This document shows positions 42,001 to 54,000 of a stretch of 64,000 nucleotides of DNA, piece after piece. The first letter of the stretch is position 1; every line of letters starts with the position of its first letter. Source of the stretch: Escherichia coli O157:H7 (GTDB lineage Bacteria; Pseudomonadota; Gammaproteobacteria; Enterobacterales; Enterobacteriaceae); the NCBI RefSeq assembly GCF_013167455.1, contig NZ_CP038330.1. One strand, 5' to 3'. Made by a program: the position numbers.

Positions 42001-45000
42001 AGCGCCAAGCTCATCATTCTGGTGGGAGCCAGTCAGTGGGCCTTTTTCCATTTCGTCTTTGATACGTTTGGCATCATTCAGCAGCTCACGGCTTTGTTTA
42101 CGAGTAATCCCGTCAGACATAGCCACCGCGCAGACGGCGCGACATCTTTCTTCATTCAGATCGAACAAGAGACGAAGGTTATTCAAGGTCTCTGTATCAG
42201 AACATACTTCATTATCGTATAACTCACGCACACAGTCAGGTAGCTTGAGCAACGACAGATGCGTAGATACGAAAGTGATATTCTTACCGAGCCGATCAGC
42301 AATATCCTTTTGCTTCCAACCTTCTTCAATAAACAGGTTTAACGCCTCGGCAATCTCTACCGGAGTCAAGTCATCCCGCTGGATGTTTTCGATCAGCTCA
42401 CCAGCAGTCTCGTCCAAGTTGTTCTGGACCTTATCATTCACCACCAAGTCAATGGTCTCGATACCAGCGTGTTTACACGCTCTCCAACGCCGCTCCCCTT
42501 TTTGGATGACGAACTTGCCTTCTTCGTTCTTCGGGAACACGATGATCGGAGACTGCTGCCCTTCGGTCAGCAAGGTTGCCGCCAGCTCTTCAATGTTACG
42601 GAAGCGCTTACGAACCTGGACCTTGGATACAACGTCGTCAACAGGTACGGTAAGAACCTCTTTGCCTTTCTTGCCTTTGGCGGCTTTAGCAAGTTCGGAC
42701 AGGCCTTTTAAATTGTTCAATGCCATCGCTTAGCCCACCTTCTCTAATAGTTCTTCCAACACCGCCTCAACTTCTTTGGCCGCGACATGTCCATAGCGAA
42801 GCTCCCAGACAGGGATGCCATCAGTCGTCGCCGTATCGAGCGGAGGCCGGTGCATAATTTTGTTCTCAAACAACAGATCCGGAACTGTGTTCTCCAGCGA
42901 CTTGAGGGCTTTGTCGTGATTGACAGAGCGGTCCATGTCGTTGATCACGATGCCCAGGATCTCCAAATCTTGGTTGTACGCCTCGCGCACACCAATAATC
43001 GTGTTCAGGAGACCTTCTACGCCGTCCACAGCGAAGCCAGAGAGCTTTACTGGACATGCCACATGGGTAGACATCACCAACGCTGCCACCAGCTTTCTGC
43101 CGAGGCTAGGCGGACAATCAATCAGCACGTAGTCGTAGTTCTCAAACAGCTCAGCCAAATGGCGAGCCGGATTCATGGCCTGGTCAAGAGGCACAGCCTC
43201 CATCTCAAACAGATCCGGGTCGTTTTTCGGCGTATGAATGAGGTCTGCACCGCAAGGGCAGTGCATGACCTCAATGCCGTCCAGCTCGTAAGCGAACAGC
43301 TCTGCGGTTTTGGTTCCTGTGAGGATGGGCTCGTAGTCACCATCCTCAAGCTCTCGTCTGGGGGCCAGTCGAGAGGACGTGTTCCCCTGACCATCCATAT
43401 CCAAGACCAGCACTTTCTTTTTCTTCTGTAACGCCAGATAAAAGGCCTGCTGGATACAGAGGGTACTCTTACCCACTCCGCCTTTCTGGTTGGCGAAGCT
43501 GATTACTTTTGCCATACCCACCTCTATTTTGGTTTCTCGCAGGTGATCAAGACCACCCCCAAACTTTCACATGTGAAAGATTGTAGCGATCATAAAATGA
43601 TACTGCAATATCTAATTATGGTTCTGTTAAAACAAACTTTAAACAAAAAAACGGCCATGAAGGCCGCTTATTGACAAGGTTTGTGCTGTCAGCGCAATTG
43701 ATTTGCTGCTCCAAGCCCATTCGCCAATAACTGCATCGCATCGTTGAACAGCGCGGAGCCCCGTTCCGGTGTGAGCAATTCCGGCATATCTTCTCGCGGC
43801 CAAGTACCGGCTACTTGAATGAGCAAACTGGCAGCCCAGTGGATCTGCTTTTCTTCACTTTCATCGGCCAGAGTGCATACGACGGGGAAACCGTACTTAC
43901 GCCCCCAGCGACTCACCTCTTTGAACGATACCAGCTCAGGCTTTTGCAAATCCCGGCTGTAGGCCTCAGCTATCATGTGGTTCAGTTCTTTAGCGTCCAT
44001 TTATCCCACTCTATTGTAAACAAGACATTTTTATCTTTTATATTCAATGGCTTATTTTCCTGCTAATTGGTAATACCATGAAAAATACCATGCTCAGAAA
44101 AGGCTTAACAATATTTTGAAAAATTGCCTACTGAGCGCTGCCGCACAGCTCCATAGGCCGCTTTCCTGGCTTTGCTTCCAGATGTATGCTATTCTGCTCC
44201 TGCAGCTAATGGATCACCGCAAACAGGTTACTCGCCTGGGGATTCCCTTTCGACCCGAGCATCCGTATGAGACTCATGCTCGATTATTATTATTATAGAA
44301 GCCCCCATGAATAAATCGCTCATCATTTTCGGCATCGTCAACATAACCTCGGACAGTTTCTCCGATGGAGGCCGGTATCTGGCGCCAGACGCAGCCATTG
44401 CGCAGGCGCGTAAGCTGATGGCCGAGGGGGCAGATGTGATCGACCTCGGTCCGGCATCCAGCAATCCCGACGCCGCGCCTGTTTCGTCCGACACAGAAAT
44501 CGCGCGTATCGCGCCGGTGCTGGACGCGCTCAAGGCAGATGGCATTCCCGTCTCGCTCGACAGTTATCAACCCGCGACGCAAGCCTATGCCTTGTCGCGT
44601 GGTGTGGCCTATCTCAATGATATTCGCGGTTTTCCAGACGCTGCGTTCTATCCGCAATTGGCGAAATCATCTGCCAAACTCGTCGTTATGCATTCGGTGC
44701 AAGACGGGCAGGCAGATCGGCGCGAGGCACCCGCTGGCGACATCATGGATCACATTGCGGCGTTCTTTGACGCGCGCATCGCGGCGCTGACGGGTGCCGG
44801 TATCAAACGCAACCGCCTTGTCCTTGATCCCGGCATGGGGTTTTTTCTGGGGGCTGCTCCCGAAACCTCGCTCTCGGTGCTGGCGCGGTTCGATGAATTG
44901 CGGCTGCGCTTCGATTTGCCGGTGCTTCTGTCTGTTTCGCGCAAATCCTTTCTGCGCGCGCTCACAGGCCGTGGTCCGGGGGATGTCGGGGCCGCGACAC

Positions 45001-51000: not shown

Positions 51001-54000
51001 GAGGCTCAACGTGAGTTGGATCATAGCGGGCGTCGTGTTCAGGATGCCGGGCATCGCTGGAACGACAGGGAGATAAATATCCATCGCCAGTGAAGCGAGG
51101 ATGTCGAAAGGAGCCATCAGCAGCAGTGCTGCCGGCAGCGTATAGGCCCACGCGGGGCGTGTGGTGGTCATGACGAATCAACCCTCGATTAAGGAATACC
51201 GGGCGACGTCTGCTCGTCAGCAATCAGATGAGACTAGCCTTACAGAGCGCCGCAACAACAATACTGGTTGTTGCGGCTTACTTGTCTGCTGACTTGGAAT
51301 TTCCCATCTGATTACTCCACGCTTACGAATATGAATTGCTACATTTTATCCGATTATCTTTTGCTTCGCAATGCGGCATGGGCGCACTCAGCGTTCCAGC
51401 CCCCTCTGCCGCCCTAACTGCCACGACACCGACCCGCCCTGCACGATGCCCATAACCTCGCGGCCGAGTTGGCGGTCGATGATCGGCCGCCACGGGACAA
51501 GGGTGAACTCATGGGATTTCTCGACCACGGCGAACTTGCCGCTCGATAGATGCACGGTTCCGGTAAACTTGCCGCTGACGCTCTCGCCGTCCGTGGCGGC
51601 GCGGAACGGCAGGCCCTTACTCAAAGCCATATCCGATCCGACGCCGGCTACCTCGCGCTCCCGCAGGATGGCGAGAAGGTTGCGCCGGTAGAAGACGCGG
51701 CTGTCCCGGCTGCGGGTGGCGTCGCCCTGTTCGATATGGTGCTCGCGGCGCTGGTCCATGGCTTCGCGGACTTGTTGCCCGAAGCCGGTTGGCGCAAGGT
51801 CGGCCGTCTCGCCGTGGATCAGCCGCCGGTCCAGCCAGGTCGCGCCGTCCGATCCGATCTGTTTGTTCAGATCGACCGGGGAAAGGACGCGAACGCTGGC
51901 CTGACTGTCTCGGCCGGCGTCATGGGCGGCGGCACGGCTGACCAGATCATCGGGGATGCGCCATTGGTCGGCGTCGATCCGCTCGACGATACCGGCCCGG
52001 CGTAGCGCCTCCAGCCGGCGCACATGGGCATCGACATAGCCCTCATAGTCGCCGCCTGGAACGCGGCACGTATAGGAAGAATAAACGCCCTTTTCACCCA
52101 AGTCCAACAGCTTTGGACCGCAGTTGACTCTTTCGACACCCCTGCGATGCAACCCAATCCGGCTGACGGGGAGCCAGCAACGCTGAAAATTTACCCTCCT
52201 CTTTCCCACTAGCGGCTCCTTTTCCGACAACCAGCACGGCGGATCCCTGCCGCGGCGCTGTGAACGCAGCATTTTGATTGGTATCGTTGGCCTTCAGGCT
52301 CGTCAGTCAAACAGACCCAGGAGCAGCTCAGCCGGTGGCGCCCGGCTTTCGGGTAACGCCCTGGTCCCGCTGGTTTCGGCTTTGTGCTTCAGGTGATCAA
52401 GGATCTGCTTGATCACTATAGGGTCTTCAATGCAGGCGATGACTTTCATGGCGCCGCCGCAGCCGCTGCAGGTCTCGATGTCGATATTGAAAACACGCTT
52501 GAGCCGTTGCGCCCATGTCATCGACGCTCGCCGTTGTGCTGGTGTTGCCGGTTCATCAGCCACCCTGACCTTGTTGCCCCTGCCCCGTTTTGCCGGCGTG
52601 ACCAACGCCCGGTGCCGACTGTTGGGTGCGAACACCCCGTGGAAGCGGGTTAGGTTGACTCTGGGCTTCGGTACCAGGGCGGCCAGCCTTGCAATGAAAT
52701 CCAATGGTTCGAAAATGACGTGCGTGGTGCCGTCCCGGTACGGCGTCTTGAGCTGGTAGCGCACGTTGCCGCCTCGTGTTAACGACAGCCGCTTCTCGGA
52801 TACCGCCGGGCGGCTGATGTACCGGCACAGCCGTTCGAGCTTCTTGCGTTCATCGGCCCTGGCCGCCACGCCGGCGTGCAGGCTGGACCCGGCTACCTTG
52901 CCAATCCCGTCACCGAACGGATCACCACTGGTCGGCAGAGTTTGCAAAGTGAACACCTTTCGCCCCGCCTGTGAACCGACAGCGATACGGTAAGTGATCG
53001 AGTGCCCCAGCAGGGGTGTCATCGGGTCGTCATCCACCGCATCCGAGGCCAGATAGCTGTTTTCGACATCCCGTTCCAGCAGGCCTTGCCGTTCCAGATA
53101 GCGACCCACCCGGTGGGCGATGGTGTGCGTCAGCTGGGTGAGCTCTGGGCTGGTCGGCGCCTTGACCCAGCGGAAACGCGCTGAGCCGTGGGATTGCTCG
53201 ACATACACACCGTCGAGAAACAGCATGTGGAAGTGAACATTCAGATTGAGCGCCGATCCAAAACGCTGGATCAGGGTGACCGCGCCCGTCTTGGCCACTT
53301 GGTGGGTATGGCCCGCTTTCTTGACCAGGTGCGTGGCAATGACGCGGTAAACGATGCCCAGCACCCACCCCATGATCTCGGGCCGGCTGGCAAACAGGAA
53401 ACGCAGCTGAAACGGGAAGCTCAACACCCACTGACGCATGGGTTGTTCAGGCAGTACTTCATCAACCAGCAAGGCGGCACTTTCGGCCATCCGCCGCGCC
53501 CCACAGCTCGGGCAGAAACCGCGACGCTTACAGCTGAAAGCGACCAGGTGCTCGGCGTGGCAAGACTCGCAGCGAACCCGTAGAAAGCCATGCTCCAGCC
53601 GCCCGCATTGGAGAAATTCTTCAAATTCCCGTTGCACATAGCCCGGCAATTCCTTTCCCTGCTCTGCCATAAGCGCAGCGAATGCCGGGTAATACTCGTC
53701 AACGATCTGATAGAGAAGGGTTTGCTCGGGTCGGTGGCTCTGGTAACGACCAGTATCCCGATCCCGGCTGGCCGTCCTGGCCGCCACATGAGGCATGTTC
53801 CGCGTCCTTGCAATACTGTGTTTACATACAGTCTATCGCTTAGCGGAAAGTTCTTTTACCCTCAGCCGAAATGCCTGCCGTTGCTAGACATTGCCAGCCA
53901 GTGCCCGTCACTCCCACTCGATTGTAAACAAGCACACAAAACCCTTTAGTGACAACAATTTGCAAGAACTATCAGGCTCAGTGCCATGAAAAATACCATG

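What the first reader, a model, noticed from the sequence alone, without database searches (positions are those of the whole stretch)
44001..54000. sul2-strAB-tetRA-floR-ISCR2 resistance region with a remodelled tetA end and similar sequences at both boundaries
The last nine codons of tetA(A) are replaced by sequence from a 307-bp ISCR2 5'-end fragment, which also truncates a LysR-family gene. A complete ISCR2 lies downstream of floR. Sequence just outside the two ends of the region (about 44005-44092 and 53919-54000) shares two short blocks, CCCACTCnATTGTAAACAAG and CCATGAAAAATACCATG, which may mark related insertion junctions or duplicated target sequence. The 580-bp stretch between strB and tetR (46823-47401) looks like a transposon-junction remnant.
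Basis: partly seen in the sequence, partly recalled or inferred. Interest (0 to 1): 0.4.

Follow-up and report, generated by a model that had tools for sequence, protein, structure and literature searches.

The report
Known IncC resistance island with att-site boundaries
This is the well-known sul2-strAB-tetA-floR resistance island (ARI-B) of IncC plasmids, and the two similar sequences at its edges are the published attachment sites that let the integrase of the genomic island GIsul2 cut the whole drug-resistance block out or paste it in.

Summary
Every sequence observation checks out, but the region is ordinary. It is 100% identical to ARI-B in hundreds of IncC plasmids.

- **tet(A):** the last nine codons come from a 307-bp CR2/ISCR2 fragment. 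This is a common allele, seen on at least 1000 contigs.
- **Boundary blocks:** both are real, 20/21 and 21/23 identical at the same 9908-bp offset. They are not a target duplication, because an island-free IncC backbone shares only GGGA with them.
- **Block 1:** it carries the GIsul2 att core GAGTGGGA. The left copy is attR and the right copy is attLR, so 44004-53919 is a "CR2-sul2 unit" as defined by Zhang et al. 2022.
- **Natural deletion:** 61 PLSDB plasmids lack the unit exactly, with the crossover inside the 8-bp core.
- **Block 2 (new inference):** it is a pair of CATGGTAT direct repeats. Five more copies sit in the integrase-proximal arm of GIsul2. The pair is conserved at a fixed distance from the core in 60 distinct right arms from other genomes, and the motif changes with integrase type. 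I read it as an arm-type integrase binding site.
- **strB-tetR stretch:** it is the Tn5393 right end joined to tetR(A)-context sequence.

Verdict: already known, low interest.

The parts
43689..44000 (-). IncC backbone gene 053 (103 aa), first gene of the 053-parA-parB cluster. The island junction lies 3 bp upstream of its ATG.
   Evidence: Empty-site comparison.
44004..44024 (-). Block 1, left copy. This is attR of GIsul2 and the CR2-sul2 unit. The core GAGTGGGA is the reverse complement of 44004-44011. Only GGGA (44004-44007) is shared with the island-free backbone.
   Evidence: PMC9376610.
44073..44098 (-). Block 2, left copy. Two direct CATGGTAT repeats with a 12-nt period, 64 nt from the core. 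Candidate arm-type integrase sites.
44307..45122 (+). sul2. Window 44004-45163 is 99.8% identical to the right end of canonical GIsul2.
45183..46822 (+). strA (aph(3'')-Ib) and strB (aph(6)-Id).
46823..46928 (.). Right end of Tn5393 downstream of strB. Many unrelated records stop matching exactly at 46928. The sequence matches the Tn5393 terminal inverted repeat as I recall it.
   Evidence: The identity of the inverted repeat is from memory.
46929..47401 (.). Remnant upstream of tetR(A). It has a 174-bp piece (46929-47102), then sequence shared with Tn1721-type contexts (47103-47401), including an 80-aa ORF fragment annotated as 'transposase' or 'relaxase' (47128-47370).
47402..48052 (-). tetR(A).
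48158..49357 (+). tet(A), 399 aa. Codons 391-399 and the stop codon are supplied by the CR2 fragment.
49324..49630 (-). 307-bp 5' fragment of CR2/ISCR2 (the terIS end), identical to 53608-53914. Together with the complete CR2 it forms direct repeats 4284 bp apart.
49624..49929 (-). Truncated LysR-family gene (101 aa, HTH_1 domain only).
49957..51171 (-). floR.
51388..52272 (-). ORF with a DUF3363 domain between floR and CR2.
52068..53914 (-). Complete CR2/ISCR2 (ISVsa3), with rcr2 at 52303-53796. The published terIS GGGAGTGACGGGCACTGGC is the reverse complement of 53898-53916. The oriIS-side limit is taken as the point where identity to canonical GIsul2 ends (52068).
53912..53932 (-). Block 1, right copy. 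This is attLR. Its core is 53912-53919, which lies 116-123 bp upstream of the rcr2 start.
53981..54006 (-). Block 2, right copy (CATGGTAT followed by CATGGCAC), in the right-end arm of the GI12K part of GIsul2.
54007..54965 (-). GIsul2 remnant: a 74-aa ORF (54007-54231) and the serine recombinase gene resG (54228-54965). Window 52068-54994 is 99.97% identical to canonical GIsul2.

Best explanation
**What it is**
- The window is a type-1-like IncC plasmid, and 44004-55544 is its ARI-B island, which derives from the integrative element GIsul2.
- The segment 44004-53919 is a 'CR2-sul2 unit'. It has no integrase and is bounded by two GIsul2 attachment sites.
- attR lies next to sul2 (core at 44004-44011). 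attLR lies upstream of rcr2 (core at 53912-53919).
- A tyrosine integrase of the GIsul2 type, helped by AlpA and supplied in trans (no int gene was found in the island as far as IS26 at 55545), can recombine the two cores. That excises the whole 9.9-kb resistance block as a circle, or integrates it.

**The two blocks**
- Block 1 is the core plus the adjacent conserved 12 nt.
- Block 2 is a pair of CATGGTAT direct repeats at a fixed distance of 64 nt from the core. I infer it is an arm-type binding site for the integrase's N-terminal arm-binding domain.

**How the interior was built**
- It is a mosaic of known pieces:
  - the sul2-strAB cluster (RSF1010-like, from memory);
  - the Tn5393 right end;
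  - a tetR-tetA(A) segment of Tn1721 type;
  - the ISCR2-floR unit.
- The CR2 copy of the floR unit replaced the last nine codons of tetA and cut lysR.

**Shown versus inferred**
- Shown here or in print: the anatomy, the att identity, the empty site and the natural precise deletions.
- Inferred: that integrase acts on this IncC copy, and the arm-site role of block 2.
For: **Identity of the region**
- 100% identity over 10.8 kb to IncC plasmids; at least 485 records cover 80% or more of the query. IncC annotation.
- Window 52068-54994 and 44004-45163 match canonical chromosomal GIsul2 at 99.8-99.97%.

**att sites**
- Zhang et al. 2022 (PMC9376610) define attL, attLR and attR with the shared core GAGTGGGA. 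They place attLR 112-130 bp upstream of rcr2.
- They report the predicted boundaries (Leclercq et al. 2016) at 119 bp upstream of rcr2 and 304 bp upstream of sul2.
- They show integrase-dependent, rcr2-independent excision and integration of the CR2-sul2 unit. The window's coordinates fit these positions.
- The island-free IncC site (L009) shares only GGGA with the boundary, as Harmer et al. 2017 reported (cited).

**Natural deletion**
- L008 and L013 and 61 PLSDB plasmids (example) carry the exact attLR x attR deletion product.
- These products keep the attLR-type spacer and the C variant next to the core. The crossover therefore lay in the 8-bp core, the shortest of the three shared tracts.

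**Block 2 as an arm site**
- CATGGTAT occurs only in the two block-2 copies in the 64 kb window.
- The loose motif CATGG[TC]A[TC], on either strand, occurs five times in the 8.2-kb locus L027, all within a 153-nt stretch (2474-2626) of the 304-bp arm between guaA and int.
- The integrase carries the Pfam domain PF13356, Arm-DNA-bind_3.
- In 60 distinct right arms from other species the repeat pair is the most conserved stretch outside the core region; 44 of 60 have both repeats at a 12-nt period.
- The motif co-varies with integrase type. A 79%-identical integrase has CATGGTAT in its own arm. Integrases 57-59% identical have GACGGT repeats instead (the 57% figure rests on a 37-aa match).
- Separately, a few right arms carry GACGGTA or AATGGTAT pairs at the same position.
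Against: - No int or alpA gene was found in the island as far as IS26 at 55545, so mobility here depends on a helper.
- Zhang et al. suspect that the degenerate IncC att flanks hamper excision. They report that Harmer et al. 2017 did not detect GIsul2 circles from an IncC plasmid.
- The natural deletions could in principle have arisen once and then been inherited, or by RecA-dependent recombination between short repeats.
- No binding data exist for block 2. It could bind AlpA or a host factor rather than the integrase.
- The CR2 side of attLR has no CATGGTAT motif. The unit's circular attP would therefore have arm sites on one side only.
Confidence: 0.88

Rival explanations
1. The boundaries are the ends of an ISCR2 rolling-circle transposition unit. 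On this view rcr2 moved the block, replication ended at terIS, and the shared blocks are remnants of that process.
For: - The published terIS (GGGAGTGACGGGCACTGGC) is present at 53898-53916 and starts inside the core.
- Both CR2 copies end within 1-2 bp of the same position.
- The ISCR2-floR unit is described as a transposable element (PMC4503812).
Against: - Both blocks lie outside CR2, on the far side of the core.
- Deleting rcr2 had no effect on mobilisation in Zhang et al., whereas deleting int or the att sites abolished it.
- The same right-arm architecture, and a CR2-like left arm, flank cargo with no rcr gene in many genomes.
Confidence: 0.06
2. The repeats are a target-site duplication, or duplicated IncC backbone sequence, made when the island inserted.
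For: Similar sequences sit near both ends of the resistance genes at one fixed offset.
Against: - The island-free backbone L009 reads ...TTAAGGGGGA|TAAATG and shares only GGGA with the junction.
- The right copy is internal to GIsul2 in chromosomes that have no IncC DNA at all.
- The 51-bp spacer between the blocks is unrelated in the two copies.
Confidence: 0.01
3. Block 2 is not an integrase arm site. It might instead bind the excisionase AlpA or a host factor such as IHF, or act as a promoter or operator element.
For: - Excision in Zhang et al. was boosted by AlpA, and excisionases usually bind one arm.
- A third conserved patch (tAAgccattGA) lies between block 2 and the core and could bind a bending protein.
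Against: - The same 8-mer recurs five times, in both orientations, in the int-proximal arm. That pattern is typical of integrase arm sites.
- The motif co-varies with integrase type.
- The right copy has no downstream gene to regulate, because it lies just past the stop of the 74-aa ORF on the other strand.
- No minus-strand promoter-like site was found in the attR arm.
Confidence: 0.2

Closest known systems
ARI-B resistance island of IncC (A/C2) plasmids, sul2-strAB-tetA(A)-floR configuration (pSN254 / pAR060302 lineage)
   Same: - Identical sequence over the whole finding.
- Same position next to 053-parAB.
- Same IS26-resG junction.
   Different: - ARI-B is joined through an IS26 array directly to a mer module. 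In pSN254-type plasmids that module lies at a separate place. The same arrangement is seen in NZ_CP025275.1.
- There is one extra 767-bp partial IS26 copy.
CR2-sul2 unit of GIsul2 (Zhang et al. 2022, PMC9376610; GIsul2 of Nigro & Hall 2011 and Harmer et al. 2017)
   Same: - Bounded by attLR and attR with the core GAGTGGGA.
- CR2 and sul2 have the same relative orientation.
- The resG-orf74 flank is 99.97% identical to canonical GIsul2.
   Different: - The truncated glmM gene between CR2 and sul2 is replaced by 7 kb of strAB, tetRA and floR DNA.
- The outer flank of attR is IncC backbone (TAAATG...) instead of sequence downstream of guaA.
- No int or alpA gene lies in cis.
ISCR2-floR unit ('TnfloR', Doublet et al. 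2005, reinterpreted by Toleman et al. 2006)
   Same: It carries lysR', floR, the DUF3363 ORF and CR2.
   Different: - Here it is embedded between tetA and attLR.
- Its left CR2 copy is only 307 bp long.
Tet(A) of Tn1721/RP1 (TCR1_ECOLX)
   Same: 399 aa, with residues 1-390 identical.
   Different: - The last nine residues are RNSSNSRCT instead of SGAGQRADR.
- Both forms are common named alleles.
Arm-type sites of lambda/P4-like tyrosine integrases, and cis-mobilisable (integrase-less) elements formed by tandem accretion
   Same: - Short repeats sit tens to hundreds of bp from the core on both arms.
- The integrase has an arm-binding domain.
- The cargo module is flanked by att sites and lacks its own integrase.
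   Different: - No binding or genetic data exist for these repeats.
- The unit's own left arm (the CR2 5' end) lacks the CATGGTAT motif.

Membership tests
ARI-B island of IncC plasmids (GIsul2-derived) | Located in the IncC backbone immediately upstream of 053-parA-parB, at the GGGA secondary integration site. | tested here: met
   - IncC typing and gene order.
- Comparison with the empty site L009 shows that only GGGA is shared.
ARI-B island of IncC plasmids (GIsul2-derived) | Contains sul2 with the right end of GIsul2, plus GIsul2-internal sequence (resG, orf74, CR2). | tested here: met
   99.8-99.97% identity to chromosomal GIsul2 (L015) over window 44004-45163 and 52068-54994.
CR2-sul2 unit (Zhang et al. 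2022) | Bounded by attLR (112-130 bp upstream of rcr2) and attR (end about 304 bp upstream of sul2), which share the core GAGTGGGA. | tested here: met
   - Cores at 53912-53919 and 44004-44011.
- rcr2 starts at 53796 and sul2 starts at 44307.
CR2-sul2 unit (Zhang et al. 2022) | Excised and integrated by the GIsul2 integrase through recombination between the cores. | not testable with these tools
   Indirect support only. 61 plasmids and 2 further contigs carry the exact attLR x attR deletion product, with the crossover in the core.
ISCR2 / CR2 (IS91-like element) | Intact rcr2 gene (497 aa) with the published terIS sequence at its 5' end. | tested here: met
   - The ORF at 52303-53796 is annotated as WP_001120888.1 in identical records.
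- terIS is the reverse complement of 53898-53916.
ISCR2 / CR2 (IS91-like element) | Defined oriIS end and rolling-circle transposition. | not tested
   - Only the limit of identity to canonical GIsul2 (52068) was mapped.
- No oriIS consensus was checked, and the mechanism has not been shown experimentally.
tet(A) class A efflux gene | Full-length MFS pump that matches a reference tet(A) allele. | tested here: met
   - 399 aa.
- AMRFinder reports 100% identity to a reference allele in records identical to the window.
- The exact protein is on at least 1000 contigs and is named 'MULTISPECIES Tet(A)'.
Arm-type integrase binding site (lambda/P4-like attP architecture) | The same short motif is repeated on both arms at a distance from the core, and the integrase has an arm-binding domain. 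| tested here: met
   - Two copies in each right arm and five in the int-proximal arm.
- PF13356 domain in the integrase.
Arm-type integrase binding site (lambda/P4-like attP architecture) | Conservation across relatives, and co-variation of the motif with integrase specificity. | tested here: met
   - Alignment of 60 distinct right arms.
- CATGGTAT goes with a 79%-identical integrase; GACGGT-type repeats go with integrases 57-59% identical (57% over 37 aa only).
Arm-type integrase binding site (lambda/P4-like attP architecture) | Direct binding by the integrase N-terminal domain, and a requirement for recombination. | not testable with these tools
- The motif is not mentioned in PMC9376610.
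- No paper in the library pairs GIsul2 with 'arm-type'.

The most novel reading that the evidence does not exclude
The CR2-sul2 unit may be one member of a widespread, largely undescribed class of integrase-less cargo modules.

**Proposed architecture**
- The modules stack in tandem at the guaA attachment site of Gammaproteobacteria.
- Each has a left arm of GGCA repeats and a right arm with a CATGGTAT pair 64 nt from the core TTTACAAT-N-GAGTGGGA.
- The left arm is the same architecture as the 'terIS' end of ISCR2.

**What would follow**
- The 5' end of ISCR2 would be an attachment-site arm rather than a transposon terminus.
- Block 2 would be the arm-type site that lets GIsul2-type integrases mobilise any such module, including this 9.9-kb multiresistance block on IncC plasmids.
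Probability: 0.5. Interest if true: 0.5.

Novelty: already known. Interest (0 to 1): 0.18.

Why it matters
- The finding itself adds nothing new. The island, the hybrid tet(A) allele, the ISCR2-floR unit and the att sites are all in the databases or the literature.
- The practical point is that the five-drug block in IncC plasmids is a discrete module flanked by att sites. It can be lost exactly, as in 61 plasmids, and presumably gained in one step when a GIsul2-type integrase is present.
- If the arm-site reading of block 2 and the family-wide module architecture hold, they give a concrete test of how sul2-linked resistance blocks spread.
- They would also bear on the long-running question of whether ISCR2 moves as an insertion sequence at all.

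Tried and rejected
- **Target-site duplication:** rejected by the empty IncC site.
- **Chance similarity:** rejected by counts and shuffles.
- **Outward promoter in the attR arm driving 053-parAB:** no minus-strand promoter-like site was found, so this was not pursued.
- **Small Shigella sonnei plasmid:**
  - I tested whether its sul2-strAB-tetRA unit (NZ_CP151316.1) is flanked by two att sites.
  - Only the CR2 side keeps an intact core. The sul2 side shares only about 95 bp and has no attR, so it is not a clean integrase product.
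- **tblastn for integrase or Rcr2 downstream of CR2-like left arms in other genomes:** mostly negative. This is what led to the reading of integrase-less cargo modules.
- **Literature:**
  - A full-text search for the core sequence GAGTGGGA returned mostly primer hits and was useless.
  - Doublet et al. 2005 (TnfloR) is not held, so the 4284-bp size is from memory.
  - A search for papers describing the tetA-CR2 junction gave nothing specific.
- **Origin of 54995-55544:** I did not establish it. It is absent from canonical GIsul2.

Full report
**1. What is there**

The window is an IncC plasmid. The 10.8 kb around the finding is 100% identical to many IncC plasmids from Salmonella, Klebsiella, E. 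coli and Vibrio cholerae. At least 485 records cover 80% or more of the query, and the annotation of one such record is.

Gene order is as follows:
- 053, a backbone gene on the minus strand (43689-44000).
- sul2 (44307-45122), strA and strB (45183-46822).
- tetR(A) (47402-48052, minus strand) and tet(A) (48158-49357).
- A 101-aa LysR fragment (49624-49929, minus strand).
- floR (49957-51171, minus strand) and a DUF3363 ORF (51388-52272, minus strand).
- rcr2 of CR2/ISCR2 (52303-53796, minus strand).
- A 74-aa ORF and resG (54007-54965, minus strand), followed by IS26 from 55545.

**2. The tetA end**

Window 49324-49630 (307 bp) is identical to 53608-53914, the 5' end of the complete CR2. Tn1721-type tet(A) genes match up to 49329, so the junction carries a 6-bp microhomology, TTGGAG. 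Residues 391-399 change from SGAGQRADR to RNSSNSRCT, with no change in length.

Both forms score 100% against AMRFinder reference alleles. Both exact proteins are on at least 1000 contigs. At least 917 plasmid records cover 80% or more of the query that spans the junction.

The LysR ORF keeps only its HTH_1 domain and stops at the edge of the CR2 fragment. The two CR2 ends lie 4284 bp apart. That matches the size I recall for 'TnfloR', which is described as an ISCR2-floR element in PMC4503812. The original paper could not be read.

**3. The strB-tetR stretch**

Many unrelated records stop matching at 46928. The sequence 46840-46928 is the reverse complement of the Tn5393 terminal repeat as I recall it. 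A 174-bp piece follows, and from 47103 the sequence is the one found upstream of tetR(A) in Tn1721-type contexts.

**4. The boundary blocks**

They are real and in register:
- 44004-24 versus 53912-32 is 20/21 identical.
- 44076-98 versus 53984-54006 is 21/23 identical.
- Both pairs sit at offset 9908, and the 51-bp spacer between them is unrelated.
- The exact blocks occur nowhere else in the window.

Block 1 contains TCCCACTC, the reverse complement of GAGTGGGA. That is the core of the GIsul2 attachment sites. Zhang et al. 2022 (PMC9376610) describe attL, attR and a third site, attLR, 112-130 bp upstream of rcr2. They report that the predicted ends of 'CR2-sul2 units' (Leclercq et al. 2016) lie 119 bp upstream of rcr2 and 304 bp upstream of sul2. 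They also show that the GIsul2 integrase, and not rcr2, excises and integrates both GIsul2 and the CR2-sul2 unit. The window fits these positions exactly. The left copy is attR and the right copy is attLR.

**5. Tests of that reading**

- *Comparison with canonical GIsul2.* A chromosomal GIsul2 (L015) matches window 52068-54994 and 44004-45163 at 99.8-99.97%. The right copy is therefore internal GIsul2 sequence, and the left copy is the GIsul2 right end.
- *Empty site.* An island-free IncC backbone (L009) reads ...TTAAGGGGGA|TAAATGGACGC, against ...GAGTGGGA|TAAATGGACGC here. Only GGGA is shared. This rules out a target duplication. It agrees with the 'GGGA secondary site' cited.
- *Natural deletion.* Two contigs (L008, L013) and 61 PLSDB plasmids carry resG-orf74 fused to 053. 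The junction is ...CTTGTTTACAATCGAGTGGGATAAATG. One example is a Yemeni V. cholerae IncC plasmid.
- *Position of the crossover.*
  - The deletion product keeps the attLR spacer and the C variant next to the core.
  - The exchange therefore happened inside the 8-bp core, not in the longer 12-bp or 17-bp identities.
  - That favours site-specific recombination over homologous recombination.
  - The plasmids checked (L008, the V. cholerae plasmid) share the IS26-resG spacing seen here, so loss of the unit is more parsimonious than its never having been there.

**6. Block 2**

On the GIsul2 strand it reads CATGGTAT-TTTT-CATGGTAT in attR and CATGGTAT-TTTT-CATGGCAC in attLR.

- The strict 8-mer occurs only in these places in the 64 kb.
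- In locus L027 (8.2 kb) the loose motif CATGG[TC]A[TC], on either strand, occurs five times. All five lie within 2474-2626, inside the 304-bp arm between guaA and int, in both orientations.
- The integrase carries the Pfam domain PF13356, Arm-DNA-bind_3.

A scan of one genome per species for TTTACAATNGAGTGGGA returned 120 loci. Roughly as many chance hits are expected for 16 specified bases, and about a third look unrelated.
- 84 matches, giving 60 distinct right arms, carry the repeat pair about 64 nt from the core.
- In a MAFFT alignment of these arms, the repeat pair is the most conserved stretch outside the pattern itself. The consensus is TTcTGA.cATGGTATttttcATGGTATta; 44 of 60 arms have both repeats at a 12-nt period.

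The motif also tracks integrase type.
- A 79%-identical integrase (L113) has CATGGTAT in its own arm.
- Integrases 57-59% identical (L088, L054; the L054 match covers only 37 aa) have GACGGT repeats instead.
- Separately, a few right arms carry GACGGTA or AATGGTAT pairs at the same position.

I therefore read block 2 as a pair of arm-type integrase sites. This is an inference. The motif is not mentioned in PMC9376610, and no paper in the library links GIsul2 with 'arm-type'. I could not read Harmer et al. 2017.

**7. Mechanism and limits**

The resistance block is an integrase-less module flanked by att sites. No int or alpA gene was found in the island as far as IS26 at 55545, so any movement needs a helper GIsul2-type element. 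Zhang et al. suspect that the non-canonical IncC flanks reduce excision. They report that Harmer et al. did not detect GIsul2 circles from an IncC plasmid. The 61 deletion plasmids may descend from only a few events.

**8. Comparison and novelty**

The island, the allele and the att sites are all known, so the verdict is 'already known'.

The follow-up did produce one lead that goes beyond the finding.
- In other genomes the core is often followed by a left arm rich in GGCA repeats. This resembles the CR2 5' end ('terIS').
- Behind it lies varied cargo with no integrase or rcr gene: a LysR regulator, a luciferase-like oxidoreductase, an outer-membrane efflux subunit, a crotonase, a Fic protein, a SEC-C-motif protein and a likely GNAT-type toxin (by eye; no NCBIfam match).
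- Several contigs hold tandem arrays of such modules, one of them directly after guaA.
- The CR2-sul2 unit may therefore be one of a broad class of integrase-less modules. This is the novel case I rate separately.

Noticed in passing
window 55545-57898: A complete IS26 (820 bp) is followed by two identical 767-bp copies that lack 53 bp at one end. All three keep a full transposase ORF. The IS26-partial IS26 junction is also present in pSN254, pAR060302 and related IncC plasmids. The closest record (NZ_CP025275.1) has one unit fewer.
   Followed up: partly
window 53800-64000: ARI-B is joined through the IS26 array directly to a mercury-resistance (mer) module. In pSN254-type plasmids the IS26 and mer part lies elsewhere in the record, which implies an IS26-mediated deletion or rearrangement of the backbone between the two islands. 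Only NZ_CP025275.1 covered the whole stretch at 100% identity; NZ_MT816498.1 covered it at 99.9% in four pieces.
   Followed up: partly
window 54995-55544: The 550 bp between resG and IS26 are absent from canonical GIsul2, which has arsR at that position. They contain five imperfect 21-nt palindromic repeats (CATCGNCNG...GGCGATGC, 55091-55303). The segment travels with IS26-resG in 1846 plasmids. Its origin and role are unknown.
   Followed up: partly
L124 (cores at 8858, 9777, 11905, 13495 on the reverse strand), L070, L109, L149, L045, L066: Several contigs, mostly from environmental Gammaproteobacteria, carry tandem arrays of small modules (0.9-3.7 kb). No homologue of the GIsul2 integrase was found in the held DNA (4-15 kb per locus). 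Each module is bracketed by a GGCA-repeat left arm and a CATGGTAT-pair right arm ending in GAGTGGGA. One array starts directly after guaA. Cargo in L124 looks like toxin-antitoxin-type pairs (by eye); behind such left arms elsewhere it includes Fic, LysR and efflux proteins.
   Followed up: partly
window 53880-53916, compared with L058, L078, L089, L129, L149: The 5' end of CR2, including the published terIS (GTGACGGGCACTGGCTGGCAATGTCTAGCA...), resembles the left arms that follow the core in many unrelated integrase-less modules (GTGACCGGCACTGGCAGGCAATGTCTGGCA...). This suggests that terIS is an attachment-site arm rather than a transposon end.
   Followed up: partly
L088, L054, L113 (int-proximal arms); L154, L105, L043, L065 (right arms): The repeated 8-mer in the arms changes with integrase type. 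It is CATGGTAT for integrases at least 79% identical to the GIsul2 integrase, and GACGGT(A/C) for integrases 57-59% identical (57% over 37 aa only). AATGGTAT occurs in another right-arm group whose integrase was not examined. The 12-nt period and the distance from the core are kept.
   Followed up: partly
L014 12311-13030 (E. coli chromosome NZ_CP025573.1): Here the sul2-side attR arm is joined through the core to the int-proximal arm and the first 105 bp of int, which is then cut off by a Tn21-family inverted-repeat-like end (by eye) followed by IS5075. This is the attP junction expected from a circular or tandem GIsul2, preserved as a fragment.
   Followed up: partly
L157 (NZ_CP151316.1) 7540-7900: A small Shigella sonnei plasmid carries the same sul2-strAB-tetRA segment with the 307-bp CR2 fragment. 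There the fragment is followed by an intact GAGTGGGA core and then plasmid DNA, whereas the sul2 side has no attR.
   Followed up: yes
window 44000-44008, compared with L009 2570-3019: In the island-free IncC backbone a 149-aa ORF overlaps the start of 053 by 19 bp. The GIsul2 insertion 3 bp upstream of the 053 ATG cuts off that ORF's end and separates 053-parAB from whatever lies upstream. No replacement promoter was found in the att arm.
   Followed up: partly
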